Below, piece by piece: positions 7,609-26,323 of a DNA stretch of 64,000 bases. The notes below the pieces were generated by a model. That model made no database searches. It had not been told where the DNA came from and was given only the letters and a program-made list of their open reading frames with translations. Source of the stretch: a virus; the UHGV virus genome UHGV-0179803; one strand, written 5' to 3'. The position numbers and the translations under genes are program-made. Numbering within the stretch: the stretch's first letter is position 1; the number at the start of each line of letters is the position of its first letter.

Positions 7609-7637
7609 TTGACTATTTCGCTGTTTTTTGGTAAAAT
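7609..7637 (+). promoter_or_regulatory. Sigma70-type promoter (TTGACT, 17 bp spacer, TG-n-TAAAAT)
   Basis: -35 TTGACT at 7609-7614, -10 TAAAAT at 7632-7637 with TG at 7629-7630. Downstream gene starts at 7672. Confidence 0.6.
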
Positions 7638-7671
7638 AGGTCACAGAGGTTTCTCCCAACTGAGAGGAAAT

Positions 7672-9171: not shown

Positions 9172-9861
9172 ATGGCAGAGAAGAAAATAGATGTTAACCA
9201 CATTCACACTCTGCCAGATTTCGTTGAGGGGGGTCTTGATTACCTCCCCGGCGATTTTCTGAGAGAGAAAGAAGACCTGACAACATTCCTGTCTATCTAC
9301 CTTAAAAGGTTGCAGACTGTTGATGAGATGTTAGTTGCTCTTGCAGAAGGCCGTCTTCTTAACAATGCCAGCGGTAAATATCTTGATGAGATCGGTAATC
9401 AGCTTGGCATAAAAAGAAATGGCTTGCAAGATGCAGATTATCGTGCTACACTTATTATTCAGCAGGCATCTTTGTCCCGTGGTGGTACGCGTGAGGATGT
9501 AATTTCCACACTACAACAACTGTTGGGCAGAAACAATTTTGATACATGGGCTGGAGATAATTTCAGATTTGACATTAACGTCAGAAAAACCTGTTTCGAC
9601 ATTAGTCAGGCAATTGACCAGATCCTTGATATGCTACCACTGCCAACACATCTGAGATTGACAGAATCGCAGGGCAGGGCATTTGGTTTTGCCGGAGATG
9701 ATACTGCTGCGGGTTTCGGATCAATCTGGGACGATGCGCAGTTCGGAGTAGATGGTATTGCTACTCTGACTTATGTACCGGATGAACGACCTGATTGGGG
9801 TTCCACCACTGTTTGGTGTGAAAGTATTGTTGTTGACGCAACTATTGTTACGGAGGCTTAA
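9172..9861 (+). CDS. Baseplate/tail protein (P2 gpI-like position)
   Basis: Follows the baseplate J-like gene with tight spacing; RBS AAGGTGGAG. Function inferred from gene order only. Confidence 0.45.
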   Translation: MAEKKIDVNHIHTLPDFVEGGLDYLPGDFLREKEDLTTFLSIYLKRLQTVDEMLVALAEGRLLNNASGKYLDEIGNQLGIKRNGLQDADYRATLIIQQASLSRGGTREDVISTLQQLLGRNNFDTWAGDNFRFDINVRKTCFDISQAIDQILDMLPLPTHLRLTESQGRAFGFAGDDTAAGFGSIWDDAQFGVDGIATLTYVPDERPDWGSTTVWCESIVVDATIVTEA

Positions 9862-11939
9862 TGGCAACCGCTGTATTCAAAGCCTACAGGGATTACACCA
9901 CACTACAAGCAGAATTTATGTACAACACACTGGCAGATACAGCTGTGCCAGGGCGTGACTACACTCACGTCGAAGGTAAGGCGATCATTCCGGTGGATTC
10001 TGCCTCTATAGACATTCCTGTTGATATTGTGGATAAAAAACCTAACAGACTGCCTCGTAGCTTCTATATGCAGTTCCATACCCCCTCACAAGGGACGATG
10101 ATTGGGACCAAACAAGCAAAATGCACGATTACCTCCCAAGAAGATTTGAGCAGACTTGAATGGGGAACACAAGAAGAACGGATGTTCCACCCACGTTATT
10201 GGGTAACAAATTGCCAGCCGACTGAAAGTACGTCAATCAAGTCAGACAACTCCACTGTGATTGTCACGATGACTGCACGTACGATGGGGGGTATGTCTGG
10301 AGCAATCTGGGAAACAGTTGACACATACGACCACTTTGGTGTAGGATACGATGATCATTATGAAATGCGTAACACCAAACTGTGGTTCAGGGTCAAATTC
10401 ACCAATGCTCTTGACTTTACAACCCCAGGTCAGGCCACAATTACTGTCACACTTGTTGACGGTTCAATAATTTACGTCCGTATGTCAGACTATGCTTCTA
10501 ACATCTCGGATGATAAAACTACGGCAGATATTCATCTAAACTTTGAGGATTGTCTGGGTGTTGACCAGAATAACTATTTGATGGCAGTTGACCCCCGTCA
10601 GGTTCGTAAGATCCTGATCCCGTTAATGCCTAAGGACTATGTGGCTAACAGTACAGACGTTCGCACGACCAATGTTGACTGTGAACTTCGCATTGACATG
10701 TTGGAGCCGGACACTGGTTGGAAATATATGCAGCTTAATGATTTGACTGTTGAAGGTCACGATTTAAGAGCTTGCACTGCATATGATGATATGTGGAATG
10801 TTTCTCCGGCGCGTGTTCTTTATAACCTTCAGAAACTTGGCTACCGTGGTAGAATCAACCACTATTGCGGAATGAGCCATTATTATAATTACACATGGAG
10901 CAACGCAACCCATAAATGGGAGATCGATAAATCAGGGACTCTGAACAAAGCTGCCAAAGCGTGGCATGAGGATTTTGCTTATAATCTGACTCGCTACGGA
11001 TTCACAGATGCAATGTTCTCTATCAGCATGGAGCTTTACAGCGATGCCTGTCCTCTGGAATGGACCCAACGTGAATGGGACGATAGCTACGCTAAGACAG
11101 GGTATACACCTTGCAGCTACCTGTTATCACCTTGTATCGAAGAAGGTATGACATTCTTATTGAACGTCTTTAAAAACTTCGCTCAGATTTTAAAAACTCA
11201 AAGCCTGCCTGTTATTATGCAGATTGGCGAACCGTGGTGGTGGTACAATACAGACTCCCGCAGACCTTGTATCTATGACTACACCACAAAAGAGATGTTC
11301 TATGATGAAACAGGGGAGTATGCACTTGACATAGGCACTATCGACAACCCATTAACTGGTGGTGTTTATGACAGATACATCGCATTCTGTCGCGACAAAT
11401 TTGGTCAGAGAATTGCAACACTCGCTACTGGCATCAAGGCAGCATTCCCTGGTGCTCAAGTTACAGTTCTTGTCTTCTACCCCACCATTGTTGGTACACT
11501 GATGGAAGAACTTAACCTGCCAGACCAGTACAAGAAAGAGTCAGGAGTACTTGACTTCTTCTGTTCAGAATGCTATGATTGGGTTATGAATGGGGAAATA
11601 GAACATTCATTTGAAGCTATTGAGCACCCTCGCAAAACCTTAGGTTGGAACAGGAACGAAATCCATTACCTCGCAGGGTTTGTACCTGGTAAAGATTTAG
11701 CTCCAGTGTATGGCTATGACCCAGAGAAGAACTATCAGGAATTTTTGTGGAGAGTGATCTGCGGTAACATCTGTACTACTGAGTATCATTACCCAGAGGT
11801 ACAGCAGTACGTATGGGCTTATCCGCAACTTATGAATGATAGTATCACATTCAGTGCGAAAGAGTCAACTGTTGTTCACATGGGGCAGACAGCCCTTAAA
11901 AGCTACACAGAAGATGTGACACCACCAGACCTTTCATAA
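9861..11939 (+). CDS. Structural protein (692 aa), probable baseplate or fibre-proximal component
   Basis: Start overlaps the upstream stop (TAATG), indicating translational coupling within the structural operon. No diagnostic motifs. Confidence 0.55.
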   Translation: MATAVFKAYRDYTTLQAEFMYNTLADTAVPGRDYTHVEGKAIIPVDSASIDIPVDIVDKKPNRLPRSFYMQFHTPSQGTMIGTKQAKCTITSQEDLSRLEWGTQEERMFHPRYWVTNCQPTESTSIKSDNSTVIVTMTARTMGGMSGAIWETVDTYDHFGVGYDDHYEMRNTKLWFRVKFTNALDFTTPGQATITVTLVDGSIIYVRMSDYASNISDDKTTADIHLNFEDCLGVDQNNYLMAVDPRQVRKILIPLMPKDYVANSTDVRTTNVDCELRIDMLEPDTGWKYMQLNDLTVEGHDLRACTAYDDMWNVSPARVLYNLQKLGYRGRINHYCGMSHYYNYTWSNATHKWEIDKSGTLNKAAKAWHEDFAYNLTRYGFTDAMFSISMELYSDACPLEWTQREWDDSYAKTGYTPCSYLLSPCIEEGMTFLLNVFKNFAQILKTQSLPVIMQIGEPWWWYNTDSRRPCIYDYTTKEMFYDETGEYALDIGTIDNPLTGGVYDRYIAFCRDKFGQRIATLATGIKAAFPGAQVTVLVFYPTIVGTLMEELNLPDQYKKESGVLDFFCSECYDWVMNGEIEHSFEAIEHPRKTLGWNRNEIHYLAGFVPGKDLAPVYGYDPEKNYQEFLWRVICGNICTTEYHYPEVQQYVWAYPQLMNDSITFSAKESTVVHMGQTALKSYTEDVTPPDLS

Positions 11940-11952
11940 TCAGGAGAAATAA

Positions 11953-12993
11953 ATGGCTAAACCTAGTTTTCCTCTGGAGATATGGGCAGCGGAGGATCAA
12001 ATCCTCCCCAACTCCCATAAACAGAACAAGATGCGCCCCATTGACGACCTCTGGAGAAAAGGTTGGGATAAAGGGCAGAAACCATCGTGTGAAGAACTGA
12101 ACTATCTCCTGAACATGATGGCTACCTGGGCTAAATACATTTCTGAAGATCAGATCCCGTCTATGGAAGGACGTTATCTTATTAAGGACAACAACCTGAG
12201 TGATCTTCTGAATGTAGAGATTGCCCGTAAAAACCTTGGCATTGTTACCCAGGCTGAGACTGACGCTCGTTACGTTAAGATCACTGGTGACACAATGACA
12301 GGCCCTCTGGGGTTGCAACGTATTAATTTTGCGGCAGCGGAAACAGATGCGGCATGGATAGAAACCACAATCAGCCCAGATAAAACCTTGTTGGACTTCT
12401 GTCTGATGGATAACGTTGGTTCATTTGACGATGGTGGTACTTCCACAGTTGATGCTTTCCGTTGGAGATTCCAGCCTACACAACCAGATATCAACCCAGA
12501 GTTTACACTGATGCACCTGAATGCTATCTCTGTTAACCGTGCACTTCTCAAAGTCATCGGTAACATTGAAGCACAAGATAACGTGCGTTCCAACACAGTC
12601 ACCATCACTGGTACAGCTTCCTTCGGTAACGTCAGCGTATCGAGCCAGTTGACCACAGGTAGCTTCTATGCTAACGGTGGTTCCAACGTTGATAACATGA
12701 CAGTCCGTAGCCAGTATTGTGTGGTTGGTGGTCGCCATGTAGTTCGTTCAGTCAACGGTGTGAACGCAGATGGTAATGGTAACCTGACTATCAGTATCCC
12801 AGCTTCAGGCGTTCAGGATATTCGCTGCGGCGGTATGTTGATCGATGGGGTTTCTGATAACAGGGTACGTCCGGGTTATGTTATGAGAGGATGGGCTAAT
12901 GGTAATAAAAAAGAACTCCGTGGTGCAGGTTACTGGGCAGCTCCGCTACAGAAACTTGTTAACGGACAGTGGATTACCGTTCAGACATTATAA
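11953..12993 (+). CDS. Short tail fibre / receptor-binding protein, paralog A
   Basis: RBS AGGAG. N-terminus (MAKPSFPLEIWAAEDQ..) and C-terminus (..GGMLIDG..RGAGYWAAPLQKLVNGQWITVQTL) are nearly identical to the 14032..15096 paralog; the centre is divergent. Confidence 0.7.
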   Translation: MAKPSFPLEIWAAEDQILPNSHKQNKMRPIDDLWRKGWDKGQKPSCEELNYLLNMMATWAKYISEDQIPSMEGRYLIKDNNLSDLLNVEIARKNLGIVTQAETDARYVKITGDTMTGPLGLQRINFAAAETDAAWIETTISPDKTLLDFCLMDNVGSFDDGGTSTVDAFRWRFQPTQPDINPEFTLMHLNAISVNRALLKVIGNIEAQDNVRSNTVTITGTASFGNVSVSSQLTTGSFYANGGSNVDNMTVRSQYCVVGGRHVVRSVNGVNADGNGNLTISIPASGVQDIRCGGMLIDGVSDNRVRPGYVMRGWANGNKKELRGAGYWAAPLQKLVNGQWITVQTL

Positions 12994-13009
12994 TTGAGGG
13001 TTATAGATT

Positions 13010-13627
13010 ATGATTAAAATAGCTACAGGTTTTGAGTTGTATGATCCGCAAGAGCCTCGCCCAGAGGTGTTGGCTCTTGATGAAGATCAGCCACAAACCT
13101 TGGAATTAACAGAGCAGGAGATTGAAGATTACGCTCGCTATTCTGCTTACTTCCTTCGCAACGAGCACGGTGACTGGTATGCCCAGACCCGAGAATTACA
13201 GCAGATTGCCCAGGAATCTGGAGTAGAATACCTGTTTGCAGTCATAGAAGCTGATGGTTTACTGAAAATTGTAACCACGGACCCAACAGGTATTTTCCCC
13301 AGCAACGGTCTTCAAGTCCTGCATGGTAAACGAGAGGAGTTCCCGGAAGACATTGAAAACATGATCAATGCCTACCGCTGGAATGGTGAGAAATTTGTTG
13401 TTGATAACAAACCTTACATCGATGCTGCACAACAGGTTGTCGAAGAAGAGTTGCAATGGGCTACAGCAAGGCTTGGAGCTTTCAGCGACATGCTGGACTT
13501 GGATTATATACTCTCTCCTGCACAGGAGCAGTTTGTTAAGGAATTAAAACTTTACAGGATTCATCTACTGGAGATTGATATAAACAAAGCCCCCAACATA
13601 CATATCCCTGATCGCCCAGCCCTCTAA
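13010..13627 (+). CDS. Tail fibre assembly protein-like (Tfa C-terminal-domain-like)
   Basis: C-terminus ..VKELKLYRIHLLEIDINKAPNIHIPDRPAL resembles the conserved C-terminal Tfa motif (..W.KYR..LNRVDTSTAPDIEWP..). Lies right after fibre paralog A. Confidence 0.5.
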   Translation: MIKIATGFELYDPQEPRPEVLALDEDQPQTLELTEQEIEDYARYSAYFLRNEHGDWYAQTRELQQIAQESGVEYLFAVIEADGLLKIVTTDPTGIFPSNGLQVLHGKREEFPEDIENMINAYRWNGEKFVVDNKPYIDAAQQVVEEELQWATARLGAFSDMLDLDYILSPAQEQFVKELKLYRIHLLEIDINKAPNIHIPDRPAL

Positions 13628-13636
13628 GGAGGTAAT

Positions 13637-13951
13637 GTGGAACTGGACTTTGGTACGCTTTTTGAGATAATCATGAGCGCTATTGTCCCTATAGGTGTCT
13701 GGATTTTTGGTCAGTGGCACGTAAAATGGAAAGCCGTCTCTAAAAGATTGGATGATTTAGAGAAGGACCTTATTTTGGTGAAAAGCAATATGGTTACGAA
13801 AGACAGACTTGACGCGGTGCTAAATCAGCGTCTTAAAGATATTCAAGATAACCTTGACGAACTAAGGAAAGAGGTCAAAGGTGACGTTAATGGATTGCGT
13901 AGTGATATTCAACAAATTATCCAGATTCTTCTCAGTAACAAGGAGAAATAA
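13637..13951 (+). CDS. Small protein with N-terminal transmembrane helix and coiled-coil tail
   Basis: GTG start 5 nt after AGGAGG. Hydrophobic segment IIMSAIVPIGVWIFGQW followed by heptad-like charged repeats. Confidence 0.45.
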   Translation: MELDFGTLFEIIMSAIVPIGVWIFGQWHVKWKAVSKRLDDLEKDLILVKSNMVTKDRLDAVLNQRLKDIQDNLDELRKEVKGDVNGLRSDIQQIIQILLSNKEK

Positions 13952-14031
13952 CCTGCGGCAAGGAAGCCTCTGGTTGCATTTTGAGGAGTTTAGTGCTAAA
14001 ATAATGTCAAGAATTTTAGTCAGGAGAAAAC

Positions 14032-15096
14032 ATGCCAAAACCAACTTATCCGCTTGAGGTGTGGGCATATCAGGATGTGATGCTTGACACCACGCGAGAA
14101 TTAAATAAGGCCCAGCCTAGTAAGGAACAAAGGTTAGCTGGTTGGGACTTCAGTCAGAGAATCGCTGTTGAACATATGAATTTCGAGTTCAATATGATTA
14201 GTAACTGGCTGAAATACTTGAACGAAGAGGTTGTTCCTGGTTGGGATGATCGATTTTTAAAAGTTGCAAATAACCTAGCAGAAATACCGGATAAAGCTGC
14301 TGCAAGACAAAACTTAGGTTGCCTGACAATAGAGGAGATGGATGACCGTTATGTTCACCTAACAGGGGATACCTTGAAAGGTACTATGACTTTAGGGGTT
14401 ACAAGGATTAATTTTAAATCTGCTGATACAGACTCGTGTGCGATTTATTGTTCCACGATTGCAGATACCCCAGGGTATAAAGGTGGGGATAAAACCTATT
14501 TCGATTTTCGTATGGCAGACAACTACGGTACAGATGACATTGAGGCATCTTACTATACAGGCACAGAAGGATTCCGCTACAGATTCCACCCCGCAGGCGG
14601 TAGCTTGTTCACATTGATGAAATTGTGTGCTATCTCTCCAAACCGTGGGAGATTGTCCGTAGTAGGTGACATTATTGCTGCTGATAACTTACGTGCTGGT
14701 TCTATGAATGGTAACACTGTTGATATCTGGAGTACAGCTTCTGTATCAAGTCAGACACTGTGTGGTAACCTCTATACCAACAGTTTTAACTGCGATAGCC
14801 ACACAACCCGTAGTAATTACCATGTTGTAGGTGGAAGACATGTTTGCAGGTCAGTAAACGGTGCCACAGCGGATGGTAACGGCAACTTAACATTAACACT
14901 ACCTCAACCCGCTATCTCTGATGTTCGTTGTGGAGGTATGCTGATAGATGGCACAGGTGATAACCGCGTAAGGGCTGGCTACGTAATGCGTGGTTGGCAG
15001 AATGGTAATAAGAAACAATTGCGTGGCGCTGGCTATTGGGCAGCTCCACTCCAGAAACTGGTAAATGGTCAATGGATCACAGTACAGACATTGTAA
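14032..15096 (+). CDS. Short tail fibre / receptor-binding protein, paralog B
   Basis: RBS AGGAG. Shares conserved termini with paralog A (..RGAGYWAAPLQKLVNGQWITVQTL), with a divergent central region. Confidence 0.7.
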   Translation: MPKPTYPLEVWAYQDVMLDTTRELNKAQPSKEQRLAGWDFSQRIAVEHMNFEFNMISNWLKYLNEEVVPGWDDRFLKVANNLAEIPDKAAARQNLGCLTIEEMDDRYVHLTGDTLKGTMTLGVTRINFKSADTDSCAIYCSTIADTPGYKGGDKTYFDFRMADNYGTDDIEASYYTGTEGFRYRFHPAGGSLFTLMKLCAISPNRGRLSVVGDIIAADNLRAGSMNGNTVDIWSTASVSSQTLCGNLYTNSFNCDSHTTRSNYHVVGGRHVCRSVNGATADGNGNLTLTLPQPAISDVRCGGMLIDGTGDNRVRAGYVMRGWQNGNKKQLRGAGYWAAPLQKLVNGQWITVQTL

Positions 15097-15106
15097 AGAA
15101 GGGGTG

Positions 15107-15475
15107 ATGTTTAAGAAAACCAAAGCCTTTTTGTGGATGTTGGTCGCAGCACCAGACGATCCCGACAAGGTATCTCAGACCAAGTTGTGGTCCAATATAG
15201 GTATGCTAGCTATGACTATCGTTTTCCTGCACATGGGGTACACTAATACTTTGCAGGAATGGTATGCATGGATCTATGCTCCTTCAGTTGCTTGCCCACA
15301 ACTGATCAGCAAGTTTATTTCACTTCGTTGGGGCTGGAGAAGTCCTTCTTTTGGTGAACGCTACCCAGATGAGGAGTATCCTGGTAGCAGATACTCAGGA
15401 GATTGTAACTACAGGCATTCTGAATGTTCTGACTCCCCCATTGAACCAGAAGATTATAGAGATTCAAGGAGATAA
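15107..15475 (+). CDS. Small membrane protein (122 aa)
   Basis: ATG 15107 after AAGAAGGGG. Hydrophobic segment SNIGMLAMTIVFLHMGY. Ends 2 nt before the next gene. Confidence 0.4.
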   Translation: MFKKTKAFLWMLVAAPDDPDKVSQTKLWSNIGMLAMTIVFLHMGYTNTLQEWYAWIYAPSVACPQLISKFISLRWGWRSPSFGERYPDEEYPGSRYSGDCNYRHSECSDSPIEPEDYRDSRR

Positions 15476-15476
15476 C

Positions 15477-17231
15477 GTGGCTCAAGATATGACAAACTTT
15501 GAGGAGGCCGTGGATCAGGTCATAATTGATTCTGAGCGCCTCCATCTGGTTGTCAATGGTACTGCCGTGGATGAAGTTGTGGTAGAGGATGGGACAACCA
15601 TCCCTACCGTCCGTAAGGCACTACTTGATAACCTGTATTTTAAAACTCCACCAATCCCGTGGGTATATGGTTCTTCCACCACAGTATTTAACCAGATTTA
15701 TGAATACAAAGCGGATGGAAAAATCACATGGTGGTATGCTCCTGGAGCATCTAAATCCACACCAGTGCGCTTGCCAGCAGACCCTTTCACCTCTACCGCG
15801 TGGAGGTTGTATACTGATGCCAACGTGCTTGCTGAATTCTATGCTAAACTGAGTAGCCCACTCTTCCAGGGGGATCCGCGTGTTCCGACACCGCCGATGG
15901 ATGATAAATCTCTGTCCATTGCCAACACCACATTCGTTGTTGACTATGTAGACAGCATTTTTGAAGCTATGGCTGGTATGCAGGTCACAGTTGGTTCCCT
16001 AGTTGTTCGTGGCTTATCAGAATTAGCTAACACTATTATTGACGGTACTTTAACTGTACGTGGTCCTTTAAATGCTTCCGACTTTGCTGGGCGTTTCAAA
16101 GAGTTGACTTTAACAGGTAAAGATTCCGCTATCAATTTTAACTGGACAGACAGGAACCATCCTAACTGGACCTCCACAGCGCTGGATCCTTACAACATCG
16201 AGACTCACCTGTTGACCTCTGATGTGATCCACAATGGTGCTCCGGTAAGTGATAACACCACTGTTCACTTCGATGGTCGCGGTAACAACTTCTTTGACTA
16301 CGTTTATATTCGGGGGAATTCTCAGAAAGATGTTCAGGAACCCACCCTGACGGTTGACGGTGTAACTCAAGTCAAAGATCTGAAAGTAACAGGTAAAGTT
16401 GAAGGTATTGTTCACTCTGTAGATGGTCTGGATATTTACCCGAACTATCTGGAAACAACTAACGATGCCCGTGTCAACGGTGACTTGCAGGTTGGTGGAT
16501 CAGTGGTTATTCAGGGTAATGCAATGGTTCAGGATTTGTCTACCAACACATTCAGATCTAACCAGCAGGCTACTTTTGAGGGTAACGGTATTGTTGCCAA
16601 TAAAGCTGCGATTACGACTTTAACTGGTACAACTGCCACCATTGATACTGGTAACTTCACTAATTGTAATGTGAATCACAACTTGCAGGTAAATGGGGAT
16701 GTAAGCCTGAACGCAGAGGGTAATGGTACGACTTATGTTCATAACATCCAGGTCTCTGGCACACTGACAGGTTGGATGCCGGATTACACAGGTAAAACTC
16801 TCAACTGTGGCGGTGTGAACGCATCAGGTAACATCAGCATCAATGGCGACCTCAGCGTTGGTGGTAGCACTACAATTGGGAAGATCCGTACAACCAAACT
16901 GGAATTCGAATCTGAGGATATCGCTGGCGCTACGGGGACATGGACCCCATCAGGAAATGCTAACATGTACGTTGTTGAAGTTACTGGCGACCTGAACGTA
17001 GCAACATGGCCTGGCGTTACAGCAGCTTCAGAAGAGGATAAACCTTATCCGTTCTCAGTGGTGATTTATTTCCGTCAGGATGCTACAGGGCATCAGGTCA
17101 CATTCAGTGATAAGTATGCAATCTTGTCTGCAACTCCTGTAGTTAACAACAAAGCCAATAGCGTGACCCTTTGTCAACTAACCTACCCTGGCTTCGGCGA
17201 CATTGTGGACGTTATTATTGCACAACGTTAA
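15477..17231 (+). CDS. Structural protein (about 585 aa), probable tail spike or fibre-like
   Basis: GTG 15477 five nt after AGGAG. The ORF-track start at 15351 would overlap the preceding gene, so it was rejected. Thr/Asn/Gly-rich repetitive sequence typical of fibrous proteins. Confidence 0.55.
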   Translation: MAQDMTNFEEAVDQVIIDSERLHLVVNGTAVDEVVVEDGTTIPTVRKALLDNLYFKTPPIPWVYGSSTTVFNQIYEYKADGKITWWYAPGASKSTPVRLPADPFTSTAWRLYTDANVLAEFYAKLSSPLFQGDPRVPTPPMDDKSLSIANTTFVVDYVDSIFEAMAGMQVTVGSLVVRGLSELANTIIDGTLTVRGPLNASDFAGRFKELTLTGKDSAINFNWTDRNHPNWTSTALDPYNIETHLLTSDVIHNGAPVSDNTTVHFDGRGNNFFDYVYIRGNSQKDVQEPTLTVDGVTQVKDLKVTGKVEGIVHSVDGLDIYPNYLETTNDARVNGDLQVGGSVVIQGNAMVQDLSTNTFRSNQQATFEGNGIVANKAAITTLTGTTATIDTGNFTNCNVNHNLQVNGDVSLNAEGNGTTYVHNIQVSGTLTGWMPDYTGKTLNCGGVNASGNISINGDLSVGGSTTIGKIRTTKLEFESEDIAGATGTWTPSGNANMYVVEVTGDLNVATWPGVTAASEEDKPYPFSVVIYFRQDATGHQVTFSDKYAILSATPVVNNKANSVTLCQLTYPGFGDIVDVIIAQR

Positions 17232-26079: not shown

Positions 26080-26155
26080 TGGCGGCCCCTACTGGACTTG
26101 AACCAGCAACCAAGCGATTATGAGTCACCCGCTCTACCTGTTGAGCTAAAGGGCC
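26080..26155 (-). tRNA. tRNA with anticodon CAU (Met elongator/initiator, or Ile2 if lysidine-modified)
   Basis: Hand-folded cloverleaf: acceptor GGCCCUU/AGGGGCC, D-stem GCUC/GAGC, anticodon loop CUCAUAA, T-arm GGUUCAAGUCC, encoded CCA end. Confidence 0.7.
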
Positions 26156-26156
26156 G

Positions 26157-26232
26157 TGGTGCTGATGGAGGGACTCGAACCCACAACCTTTTGATTACAA
26201 ATCAATTGCACTACCGTTTGTGCTACATCAGC
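26157..26232 (-). tRNA. tRNA-Thr (anticodon UGU), tentative
   Basis: Acceptor GCUGAUG/CAUCAGC, discriminator A, encoded CCA, anticodon loop UUUGUAA, T-loop UUCGAGU. One mismatch each in the anticodon and T stems, so identity needs confirmation. Confidence 0.55.
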
Positions 26233-26248
26233 AAACTGCTTATGATAG

Positions 26249-26323
26249 TGGTATTCGGAGCGGGAGTCGAACCCGCATCTACAGCTTAGGAGGCCGCTAT
26301 TCTATCCGTTGAACTATCCGAAC
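26249..26323 (-). tRNA. tRNA-Arg (anticodon CCU, reads AGG)
   Basis: Acceptor GUUCGGA/UCCGAAU, anticodon loop CUCCUAA, perfect T-arm GCGGG-UUCGACU-CCCGC, encoded CCA. Confidence 0.65.

What the first reader, a model, noticed from the sequence alone, without database searches (positions are those of the whole stretch)
11953..15475. Two paralogous fibre genes with conserved termini and swapped central domains
The 346-aa and 354-aa proteins share almost identical N-termini (baseplate attachment) and C-termini (..RGAGYWAAPLQKLVNGQWITVQTL), with divergent middles. Each is followed by accessory genes: a Tfa-like protein and a small TM/coiled-coil protein after A, and a small membrane protein after B. 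This looks like a duplicated receptor-binding cassette that could give dual host specificity.
Basis: seen in the sequence. Interest (0 to 1): 0.5.

Follow-up and report, generated by a model that had tools for sequence, protein, structure and literature searches.

The report
Two paralogous rV5-type short tail fibres
This is the two-gene short-tail-fibre locus already described for rV5-like E. coli phages, here in an undescribed sister lineage, and the one new detail is that the two fibres keep nearly the same distal tip, partly through repeated gene conversion.

Summary
The two genes exist at the stated coordinates: 11953-12993 (346 aa, "A") and 14032-15096 (354 aa, "B"). They are clear paralogues (51% identity, E 6e-120).

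The description is only half right:
- The last ~60 residues are 84-88% identical.
- The N-termini are only 37-43% identical, no better than the middle.
- The middle is a diverged homologous domain, not a swapped one.

The locus is syntenic with rV5 gp36-gp27. A corresponds to gp33 and B to gp30, with one Mu GpU-type chaperone (Tfa) between them. Kropinski 2013 and Maffei 2021 already described these two paralogues. Kropinski detected both, and the Tfa, in rV5 virions and proposed two LPS chemotypes.

The duplication predates the split from rV5. Only the fibre gene was duplicated. B sits where related genera carry a 4-TM membrane-protein gene.

The conserved C-terminus is the Mu GpS-type distal tip. 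A and B share derived tip residues that rV5 and the outgroups lack. Close relatives carry identical A/B DNA runs of up to 110 nt, found only in the tip. This points to gene conversion plus purifying selection.

Near-identical tips argue against tip-mediated dual specificity in this phage. The fibres differ in anchor and shaft. It is a new member of a known kind, of modest interest.

The parts
9172..9861 (+). Baseplate Wedge 1 protein (rV5 gp35 orthologue), the probable docking partner of the short-fibre N-terminus
   Evidence: phmmer against PDB: phiTE Wedge 1, 9mjn_dh, E 2.7e-64; a phi92 wedge chain, E 1.8e-26. phrog_4056, E 2.6e-95. 79% identical to rV5 gp35. In phiTE the short fibre N-terminus attaches to Wedge 1 (PMC11972413).
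11953..12993 (+). Short tail fibre A (346 aa), orthologue of rV5 gp33. It keeps the ancestral N-terminal anchor.
   Evidence: 74% identical to rV5 gp33. phrog_4465, E 1.4e-150. Residues 1-104 match the phiTE short fibre 9CUY chain c, E 2.4e-21. Residues 1-70 are 59-67% identical to the single-copy fibres of Seunavirus, Avunavirus and Mydovirus. The AF2 model's top Foldseek hit is 5yvq_A, the Mu fibre-Tfa complex, E 1e-7.
12784..12990 (+). Tip domain of A, roughly the last 60-70 residues, Mu GpS C-terminal type
   Evidence: hhalign of the family profile against Mu GpS 436-503: probability 95.4%, E 2e-8. 80% identical over 70 aa to the tip of B. Forms a 197-nt direct repeat with 14920-15116 at 72% nucleotide identity.
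13010..13627 (+). Tail fibre assembly protein (Tfa, 205 aa), Mu GpU type. It is the only one in the locus.
   Evidence: PF02413, E 5.4e-6, above the cut-off. phrog_136, E 3.3e-19. hhalign against Mu GpU over the full length: probability 98.1%, E 7.5e-14. Only 44% identical to rV5 gp32.
13637..13951 (+). 104-aa protein with one N-terminal hydrophobic segment and a long helical region (rV5 gp31 orthologue). Function unknown. It also follows the Tfa in single-fibre relatives.
   Evidence: phrog_5345, E 4e-34. Hydrophobic 19-mers at residues 3-26. Same position in PVP-SE1, Hena1, Seu621, ESCO9 and 18-1-2.
13949..14031 (+). Conserved intergenic region upstream of B: a weak hairpin, then a promoter-like TTGCAT-17 nt-TAAAAT element (TGCTAAAATA at 13994-14003)
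   Evidence: Conserved between the window clade and rV5. TGSTAAAATA occurs only twice in the window; the other copy is at 7629, upstream of the baseplate J gene, against 0.32 expected. It resembles the rV5 late motif TggTAaAAtA (PMC3606486). Function inferred only.
14032..15096 (+). Short tail fibre B (354 aa), orthologue of rV5 gp30 in its N-terminal two-thirds. It has a derived anchor and a faster-evolving shaft.
   Evidence: 47% identical to rV5 gp30 overall and 60-62% over residues 1-120. phrog_4465, E 4.9e-114. Residues 1-102 match the phiTE short fibre, E 7.6e-9. Residues 1-70 are only 36-46% identical to single-copy fibres. Residues 101-210 are variable at 38% of columns within the clade.
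14887..15093 (+). Tip domain of B, nearly the same protein sequence as the tip of A
   Evidence: 84% identical to the A tip, against 35% to the tip of its own orthologue gp30. Shares derived residues with the A tip. Nucleotide identity to the A tip is 70%, with no identical run longer than 11 nt in this genome.
15107..15475 (+). Small membrane-family protein (rV5 gp29 orthologue, 122 aa) with a charged C-terminal extension. It is not specific to B.
   Evidence: phrog_1322, E 1.1e-26. 78% identical to rV5 gp29 over 77 aa. Homologues follow the 4-TM gene in single-fibre relatives.

Best explanation
The region encodes the two paralogous short tail fibres of an rV5-like myophage, together with the single chaperone they share.

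Each fibre has three parts:
- An N-terminal anchor of about 100 residues that plugs into the baseplate wedge. Wedge 1 is encoded at 9172-9861.
- A beta-rich shaft.
- A C-terminal tip of about 60 residues, of the Mu GpS type.

By analogy with Mu, the Mu GpU-type Tfa (13010-13627) binds the tip and starts trimerisation there. It probably stays on the virion.

The fibre gene was duplicated before this lineage split from Vequintavirus. A is the rV5 gp33 orthologue and keeps the ancestral anchor. B is the gp30 orthologue. It has a diverged anchor and shaft, and it lies in a separate late transcription unit, in the position where related genera carry a 4-TM gene.

In this lineage the two tips are kept almost identical in protein sequence. 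Two processes contribute: purifying selection, and recurrent gene conversion confined to the last ~180 nt.

The most likely consequence is that both fibres use the one Tfa and bind the same terminal receptor. For Vequintavirus that receptor is an LPS-core sugar. The fibres would differ in where and how they sit on the baseplate.

Shown here: paralogy, orthology, synteny, the mosaic phylogenetic signal, the conversion tracts in relatives, homology to Mu GpS and GpU, and purifying selection on both genes.
Inferred: trimer assembly by Tfa, the attachment sites, and receptor identity.
For: Paralogy: 51% identity, E 6e-120.

Synteny with rV5 gp36-gp27, gene for gene.

Mosaic phylogenetic signal in the quartet wA, wB, gp33, gp30:
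- At A positions <=260, 30 sites support orthology and 1 supports within-genome grouping.
- Beyond 260 the counts are 1 and 8. Fisher p = 1e-6.
- Tip identity is wA-wB 0.84, wA-gp33 0.65, wB-gp30 0.35 and gp33-gp30 0.44.
- wA and wB share derived residues that gp33, gp30 and six outgroups lack: C292, M295, D302, N303, R312, N316 and the terminal TL.

Conversion tracts. In-register identical A/B nucleotide runs of 20 nt or more occur only in the tip: 110 nt in L023, 59 and 39 nt in L007, 30 in L025, 29 in L009 and 30 in rV5. At a background identity of ~0.72, a 110-nt run has a chance of about 0.72^110, roughly 2e-16.

Tip and chaperone identity:
- Family profile against Mu GpS 436-503: probability 95.4%, E 2e-8.
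- Foldseek top hit 5yvq_A, E 1e-7.
- Tfa family against Mu GpU: probability 98.1%, E 7.5e-14. PF02413 passes its cut-off.

Anchor: both N-termini match the modelled wedge-binding N-terminus of the phiTE short fibre. Wedge 1 is identified.

Both genes are under purifying selection.

Literature:
- rV5 gp30, gp32 and gp33 were detected in virions (PMC3606486).
- Two short-fibre paralogues plus a chaperone homologous to Mu GpS/GpU are described for Vequintavirinae sensu stricto, with the terminal receptor in the LPS outer core (PMC8594841).
- The Tfa N-terminal domain binds the distal fibre and the C-terminal domain trimerises (PMC9608196).
- The single phi92 homologue forms six downward-pointing trimers on the wedge (PMC13450770).
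Against: - The window itself shows no recent conversion. The longest identical A/B run is 11 nt and synonymous sites are saturated (pS 0.82 in the tip). For this genome the homogenisation is inferred from shared derived residues and from relatives.
- The receptor-binding surface of these fibres is not mapped, so 'same tip means same receptor' is an analogy.
- Simple Tfa-tip co-evolution is not clean. Tfa residues 1-50 are the most variable part of the Tfa within the clade (44% of columns) while the tips barely change.
- The AF2 models are monomers of a trimeric fibre and only moderately confident (pLDDT 70.6 and 63.6).
- How two fibre types share one Wedge 1 per wedge unit is unknown.
Confidence: 0.72

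Rival explanations
1. Dual receptor specificity. A and B would bind different LPS chemotypes or hosts, with specificity carried by the diverged central or shaft domain rather than by the tip.
For: - Within the clade the central part of B (residues 101-210) is the most variable stretch of either fibre: 38% of columns vary, against 12% in A.
- B evolves 2-3 times faster than A.
- B carries an 8-residue insertion in a loop of the central beta domain.
- In rV5 itself the two tips differ (44% identity).
- Kropinski et al. proposed two LPS chemotypes (PMC3606486).
Against: - In this phage the distal tips are 84-88% identical. In Mu-type fibres the chaperone-bound distal end is the part presented to the cell (PMC9608196, PMC11915804).
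- dN/dS in the centre of B is 0.15, which gives no signal of positive selection.
- All tested Vequintavirinae depend on the same LPS-core sugar, and their two paralogues show no allelic variation (PMC8594841).
Confidence: 0.2
2. The conserved C-termini reflect purifying selection alone on an ancient shared tip, kept for folding with the one Tfa. No gene conversion was involved, and the gp30 tip of rV5 simply diverged.
For: - In the window, tip nucleotide identity is only 70% and the longest identical run is 11 nt.
- Tip dN is 0.11 with saturated pS.
- The A-type tip also occurs in PVP-SE1 and in the phi92-like phage ESCO9, at 48-60% identity, so this tip type is old.
Against: - wA and wB share several derived, partly radical residues that gp33, gp30 and all six outgroups lack.
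- L023 A and B share lineage-specific residues (CGS, NKEE) on a 110-nt identical tract.
- L007 A carries B-type sequence over 59 and 39 nt.
- All identical runs fall in the tip.
Confidence: 0.1
3. A and B co-assemble into heterotrimeric fibres, which the identical tips would make possible because trimerisation starts there.
For: - The tips, where Tfa-assisted trimerisation is thought to begin, are nearly identical (PMC9608196).
- Both orthologues are present in rV5 virions (PMC3606486).
Against: - The shafts differ by several indels and are 33-42% identical.
- The N-terminal anchors are 37-42% identical.
- The homologous single-copy fibres of phiTE, phi92 and Mu are homotrimers (PMC11972413, PMC13450770, PMC11915804).
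- The rV5 tips differ although the same two-gene layout is kept.
- B appears to have its own promoter.
Confidence: 0.04

Closest known systems
Short-tail-fibre locus of Vequintavirus (rV5 gp33, gp32, gp31, gp30, gp29; Bas57 bas57_0034-0038)
   Same: Gene order and orientation are identical from the baseplate J gene to the giant Ig-like fibre. There are two paralogous ~350-aa fibres of phrog_4465 and one Tfa. The promoter-like element upstream of the second fibre is conserved.
   Different: - This genome belongs to an undescribed sister lineage. Nucleotide matches to known phages are only patchy, at 80-84%.
- A is 74% and B only 47% identical to the rV5 proteins; the Tfa is 44% identical.
- In rV5 the two tips differ (44% identity). 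Here they are 84-88% identical.
Phage Mu tail fibre GpS with chaperone GpU (PDB 5YVQ)
   Same: The C-terminal tip domain is homologous to GpS 436-503. The fold search puts 5yvq_A first. The Tfa aligns to GpU over its full length. The chaperone gene lies directly downstream of fibre A.
   Different: - Mu carries two alternative fibre-chaperone pairs, S-U and S'-U'. They have a shared N-terminus and different C-termini and are switched by G-segment inversion.
- Here the two genes lie in direct orientation, with no invertase and no flanking inverted repeats. The N-termini differ, the tips are shared and there is one chaperone.
- The N-terminal anchor is of the phiTE/phi92 type, not the Mu type.
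Single short tail fibre of related genera: phiTE STF (PDB 9CUY), phi92 gp147 (fibre III), PVP-SE1 gp46
   Same: The N-terminal ~100 residues are homologous to the wedge-binding part modelled in phiTE. The neighbours are the same: Wedge 1 upstream, and Tfa plus the 104-aa gene downstream.
   Different: Those phages have one fibre gene, followed by a 4-TM gene (PF26221) where this genome has fibre B. The phiTE fibre is longer (554 aa), with a coiled coil and Ig-like domains (PMC11972413).
T4 gp12 short tail fibre
   Same: The role is analogous: a baseplate-bound trimer that binds the LPS core as terminal receptor. This is inferred for Vequintavirinae (PMC8594841). Kropinski et al. reported an HHpred match of rV5 gp30 and gp33 to gp12 (PMC3606486).
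   Different: The searches run here found no gp12 match, either by phmmer against PDB at E<=1 or among the listed Foldseek hits. The chaperone is a Tfa of the Mu/lambda type, not gp57A.

Membership tests
Vequintavirus-type double short-tail-fibre locus (rV5 gp33/gp30) | Synteny: Wedge 2, Wedge 1, 690-aa TIM-barrel fibre, fibre 1, Tfa, 104-aa gene, fibre 2, small membrane gene, ~580-aa fibre, giant Ig-like fibre | tested here: met
   The gene-by-gene match to rV5 L001 and Bas57 L002 gives 44-80% amino-acid identity.
Vequintavirus-type double short-tail-fibre locus (rV5 gp33/gp30) | Each paralogue is orthologous to a different rV5 paralogue, so the duplication is shared | tested here: met
   Over the N-terminal 260 residues, 30 quartet sites support A=gp33 and B=gp30, against 1 for within-genome grouping. 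The signal reverses in the tip.
Vequintavirus-type double short-tail-fibre locus (rV5 gp33/gp30) | Both fibres and the Tfa are virion components | not testable with these tools
   Reported for rV5 by mass spectrometry (PMC3606486). Here there is only indirect support from purifying selection on both genes.
Vequintavirus genus membership of the genome | Nucleotide similarity at genus level to known Vequintavirus genomes | tested here: not met
   Megablast of the locus found no match. A 25-kb replication region matched over at most 9% of its length, at 73-89% identity. Close relatives were found only in metagenome collections.
Mu GpS/GpU-type fibre with Tfa chaperone | C-terminal tip domain homologous to that of GpS | tested here: met
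   hhalign probability 95.4%, E 2e-8, family columns 279-342 against GpS 436-503. Foldseek 5yvq_A, E 1e-7.
Mu GpS/GpU-type fibre with Tfa chaperone | Tfa with the conserved C-terminal Caudo_TAP domain, encoded directly downstream of the fibre | tested here: met
   PF02413 scores 27 bits against a cut-off of 22.1, over residues 115-204. hhalign to GpU gives 98.1%. The gene starts 17 nt after A. There is no second Tfa after B.
Mu GpS/GpU-type fibre with Tfa chaperone | Alternative fibres switched by an invertible segment (G segment, Gin) | tested here: not met
   Both genes lie on the + strand. No significant inverted repeats flank them. No invertase appears among the neighbouring ORFs.
Mu GpS/GpU-type fibre with Tfa chaperone | The fibre forms a trimer in stable complex with Tfa bound at the distal tip | not testable with these tools
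   Only monomer AF2 predictions were possible.
phiTE/phi92-type wedge-anchored short fibre | N-terminal ~100 residues homologous to the modelled Wedge 1-binding region | tested here: met
   A residues 1-104 match 9cuy_c 1-106 at E 2.4e-21. B residues 1-102 match at E 7.6e-9. The Wedge 1 orthologue is present.
T4 gp12-type short tail fibre | Sequence or fold similarity to gp12 | tested here: not met
   phmmer against PDB at E<=1 found no gp12 chain. None of the 50 Foldseek hits listed is gp12. No profile-profile search of the HHpred kind reported for rV5 was run against gp12.

The most novel reading that the evidence does not exclude
The tips of two anciently diverged fibre paralogues are held together by recurrent, short gene-conversion tracts confined to the ~180 nt that encode the chaperone-bound tip. 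Sharing one Tfa, and perhaps one receptor, would then force the two tips to evolve in concert, while anchor and shaft diverge freely. In rV5 proper this coupling has largely been lost, except at the last ten codons. If so, this clade and Vequintavirus form a natural pair for asking what a Tfa actually recognises, and whether chaperone sharing limits receptor diversification in multi-fibre phages.
Probability: 0.45. Interest if true: 0.45.

Novelty: new member of a known kind. Interest (0 to 1): 0.3.

Why it matters
rV5-like phages are common, broad-host-range E. coli phages and are used in therapy and biocontrol cocktails. It is still not known what their two short fibres do.

This lineage shows that the second fibre can carry the same tip as the first. 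That points to anchor or geometry, rather than receptor choice, as the reason for keeping two. It also marks the last ~60 residues as a unit that recombines between paralogues. Both points are useful for fibre engineering and for predicting receptors from sequence.

The finding does not change the general picture of these phages.

Tried and rejected
- Recent duplication or recent gene conversion in the window itself: rejected. Overall A/B nucleotide identity is 57%, tip identity is 70%, the longest identical run is 11 nt, and synonymous sites are saturated.
- Swapped central domain: rejected. The middles align throughout and the predicted secondary-structure elements match in order.
- Invertible or switchable cassette as in Mu: rejected. 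The genes are in direct orientation and there are no meaningful inverted repeats.
- Pseudogene: rejected. Both ORFs are intact in eight genomes with dN/dS of 0.15 or less.
- Membership of the new genus Septuagintavirus: rejected. Those phages have 41% GC and a phiTE-type 59-kDa fibre of phrog_12846 (PMC11370258). This window has 43-47% GC in this region and phrog_4465 fibres.
- Positive selection on the centre of B: no support at the coarse pairwise level, ratio 0.15. No site-wise test was run.
- A third copy of the tip or the anchor elsewhere in the window: none found.
- Pfam gave no family for either fibre. The phmmer search of the Tfa against PDB gave only chance-level hits.

Full report
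**What is there.** The window carries the tail and baseplate module of an rV5-like myophage on the + strand. The finding's coordinates hold two intact ORFs: A at 11953-12993 (346 aa) and B at 14032-15096 (354 aa). Between them lie a 205-aa Tfa (13010-13627) and a 104-aa gene (13637-13951). A small membrane-family gene follows B at 15107-15475. A and B are 51% identical over their full length (E 6e-120), and both belong to phrog_4465 'tail fiber protein'. Pfam has no family for either fibre. The 205-aa protein passes the Caudo_TAP (PF02413) cut-off.

**Check of the observation.**
- It is 27-53% in 30-residue windows over the first ~250 residues, N-terminus included. It rises to 63-67% around residues 245-300 and to 83-90% over the last ~58 residues.
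- dN is 0.55-0.60 everywhere except the tip, where it is 0.11. Synonymous sites are saturated throughout (pS 0.67-0.82).
- The middles share motifs along their whole length. AlphaFold2 monomer models give the same succession of helices and strands for both (A pLDDT 70.6, B 63.6). B has an extra loop of about 8 residues.

The C-terminal claim therefore holds. 'Almost identical N-termini' and 'swapped central domains' do not.

**Identity of the locus.** tblastn places A at 74% identity on rV5 gp33 and its many Vequintavirus homologues. B reaches only 47-48% on gp30. Gene order from baseplate J to the giant Ig-like fibre matches rV5 and BASEL phage Bas57 gene for gene. Identities to the rV5 proteins are:

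| rV5 protein | Identity |
|---|---|
| gp36 | 80% |
| gp35 | 79% |
| gp34 | 68% |
| gp33 (A) | 74% |
| gp32 (Tfa) | 44% |
| gp31 | 51% |
| gp30 (B) | 47% |
| gp29 | 78% |
| gp28 | 64% |

At the nucleotide level the locus has no megablast match in 50,697 phage records. A 25-kb replication region matches Vequintavirus only in patches. Close relatives exist only in metagenome collections:
- four IMG/VR contigs from one sample (A 97-98%, B 90-92%);
- one ENA contig (L023, B 83%);
- two Logan contigs (L024, L025).

The window therefore represents an undescribed sister lineage of Vequintavirus.

**What is already known.**
- Kropinski et al. 2013 (PMC3606486) noted that rV5 gp30 and gp33 are 42% identical. 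They detected gp30, gp32 and gp33 in virions and suggested recognition of two LPS chemotypes.
- Maffei et al. [quoted passage not shown] They reported a terminal receptor in the LPS outer core and a single fibre in phi92-like phages.
- Cryo-EM of phi92 (PMC13450770) and phiTE (PMC11972413) shows the single homologue as six trimers attached by their N-termini to the wedge and pointing downward.

**Domain assignment, tested here.**
- Residues 1-104 of A and 1-102 of B match the modelled wedge-binding N-terminus of the phiTE short fibre (9CUY; E 2.4e-21 and 7.6e-9).
- The 229-aa protein at 9172-9861 is the Wedge 1 orthologue (E 2.7e-64).
- A profile of the fibre family aligns its last 64 columns to Mu GpS 436-503 (probability 95.4%, E 2e-8).
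- The AF2 model of A has the Mu fibre-Tfa complex 5yvq_A as top Foldseek hit (E 1e-7).
- The Tfa family aligns to Mu GpU end to end (probability 98.1%).

In TfaMu the variable N-terminal domain binds the distal fibre, and the conserved C-terminal helices are proposed to drive trimerisation. The chaperone stays in the virion (PMC9608196). The block conserved between A and B is therefore the chaperone-bound distal tip.

**History of the duplication.**
- Single-fibre genera were checked through PVP-SE1, Hena1, Seu621, the phi92-like ESCO9, Avunavirus 18-1-2 and three metagenomic lineages. Most of them carry fibre, Tfa, the 104-aa gene, a 157-aa 4-TM gene (PF26221), the small membrane gene and the ~580-aa fibre in that order. 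ESCO9 and the L026 lineage lack the 4-TM gene.
- The window and rV5 lack the 4-TM gene and have fibre B in its place. Only the fibre was duplicated, not a cassette.
- Over the first 260 residues, 30 quartet-informative sites group A with gp33 and B with gp30, against 1 grouping A with B. The duplication therefore predates the split from rV5.
- A-type N-termini are 59-67% identical to the single-copy fibres of Seunavirus, Avunavirus and Mydovirus. B-type N-termini reach 36-46%. A keeps the ancestral anchor and B has a derived one.

**The tip tells a different story.**
- Beyond residue 260 the quartet signal reverses to 1 against 8 (Fisher p = 1e-6).
- Tip identity is 0.84 between A and B of the window, 0.65 between A and gp33, 0.35 between B and gp30, and 0.44 between gp33 and gp30.
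- The two window tips share derived residues absent from gp33, gp30 and six outgroups: C292, M295, D302, N303, R312, N316 and the terminal TL. The two rV5 tips share their own terminal YA.
- DNA from relatives shows the process directly. In-register identical A/B runs of 20 nt or more occur only in the tip: 110 nt in L023, 59 and 39 nt in L007, 30 in L025, 29 in L009, and 30 in rV5 over the QKLVNGQWIT codons.
- The L023 tract carries lineage-specific residues in both genes (CGS, NKEE). It is itself a patchwork of A-like and B-like stretches.
- With a background identity of about 0.72, a 110-nt identical run is not a chance event (about 2e-16).
- In the window itself no run exceeds 11 nt. Its tips were homogenised long ago and have since been held by selection.

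**Selection.** Across the eight genomes of the clade, dN/dS is 0.01-0.06 for A and 0.08-0.15 for B. Neither gene is decaying. B changes about twice as often as A, most of all in residues 101-210, where 38% of columns vary against 12% in A. Tfa residues 1-50 are also variable, at 44% of columns.

**Expression.** The 80-nt gap before B contains a weak hairpin and a promoter-like TTGCAT-17-TAAAAT element conserved from this clade to rV5. Its core, TGSTAAAATA, occurs only once more in the window, upstream of the baseplate J gene, and resembles the rV5 late motif (PMC3606486). A and B are therefore probably in different late transcription units. This is inferred only. No inverted repeats or invertase suggest switching.

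**Interpretation.** The best-supported model is two homotrimeric short fibres with different anchors and shafts and one kind of tip, folded by one Tfa. Since the tips are nearly the same, tip-mediated dual specificity is unlikely in this phage.
- Dual specificity through the shaft is not excluded and is the main rival.
- Heterotrimers are unlikely, given the indels and the anchor divergence.
- Selection alone cannot explain the identical tracts in relatives.

**Limits.**
- Receptor and attachment sites are inferred by analogy.
- The structure models are monomers of moderate confidence.
- The conversion tracts come from metagenome assemblies that were not re-checked against reads.

Noticed in passing
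window 14032-15096; compare L016 5497-5970, L021 5520-5993, L027 7020-7493: Fibre B occupies the position where most single-fibre genera checked carry a 157-aa four-TM membrane-protein gene (PF26221, Phage_phiTE_239). That gene has no homologue in the window or in the rV5 locus.
   Followed up: partly
window 13949-14031: The intergenic region before B has a weak hairpin followed by TTGCAT-17 nt-TAAAAT. It is conserved between this clade and rV5. The core TGSTAAAATA occurs only twice in 64 kb; the other copy is at 7629-7638, before the baseplate J gene. It looks like a late promoter starting a second fibre operon.
   Followed up: partly
L001 (rV5) last 30 nt before the final four codons of gp33 and gp30: The rV5 tips are only 49% identical in DNA, yet the 30 nt encoding QKLVNGQWIT are identical in both paralogues (24 nt in L010). 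This suggests micro-conversion or a nucleotide-level constraint at the extreme C-terminus.
   Followed up: partly
window 13010-13160 (Tfa residues 1-50): The N-terminal ~50 residues of the Tfa contain an acidic insertion relative to rV5 gp32. They are the most variable part of the protein within the clade (44% of columns, with indels), although the fibre tips they are expected to bind hardly vary.
   Followed up: partly
window 15107-15475: The gp29-like membrane-family protein is 122 aa against 88 aa in rV5. The extra C-terminal tail is charged and rich in Tyr, Asp and Glu, and it varies between clade members (67-82% identity). The 136-aa ORF starting at 15065 overlaps the end of B, so 15107 is the likelier start.
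   Followed up: no
window 15351-17231: The mechanical 626-aa ORF overstates the gp28-like fibre. Homology to rV5 gp28 begins at residue 43, and a GTG at 15477 preceded by AAGGAG is the probable start. That gives ~584 aa, as called in relatives (PF26208/PF26209).
   Followed up: partly
window 9861-11939: The 692-aa protein upstream of A has Calx-beta, NCTSP_N and NCTSP TIM-barrel domains and matches PDB 9lc0_M 'Gp64' (E 5.4e-23). Its rV5-family homologues are annotated as the glycan-deacetylase fibre, proposed to bind the ECA/NGR glycan also used by N4.
   Followed up: partly
L016, L017, L020 fibre C-termini: The A-type tip (GW.FG.KKELRG..YW.APLQ) is shared by PVP-SE1 (Seunavirus) and the phi92-like ESCO9. 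Another Seunavirus, LNA4, has a different tip. Tips therefore seem to move between genera as modules.
   Followed up: no
window 26080-26323, minus strand: A cluster of three tRNA genes (Met-CAT, Thr-TGT, Arg-CCT) lies in the minus-strand block. GC skew reverses over roughly 24-33 kb.
   Followed up: no
window 12817-13013 and 14920-15116: In the window the synonymous difference between the two tips is slightly above saturation (pS 0.82), although the proteins are 88% identical. This may be chance, or selection against long identical direct repeats, which would allow deletion of the genes in between. No test was run.
   Followed up: no
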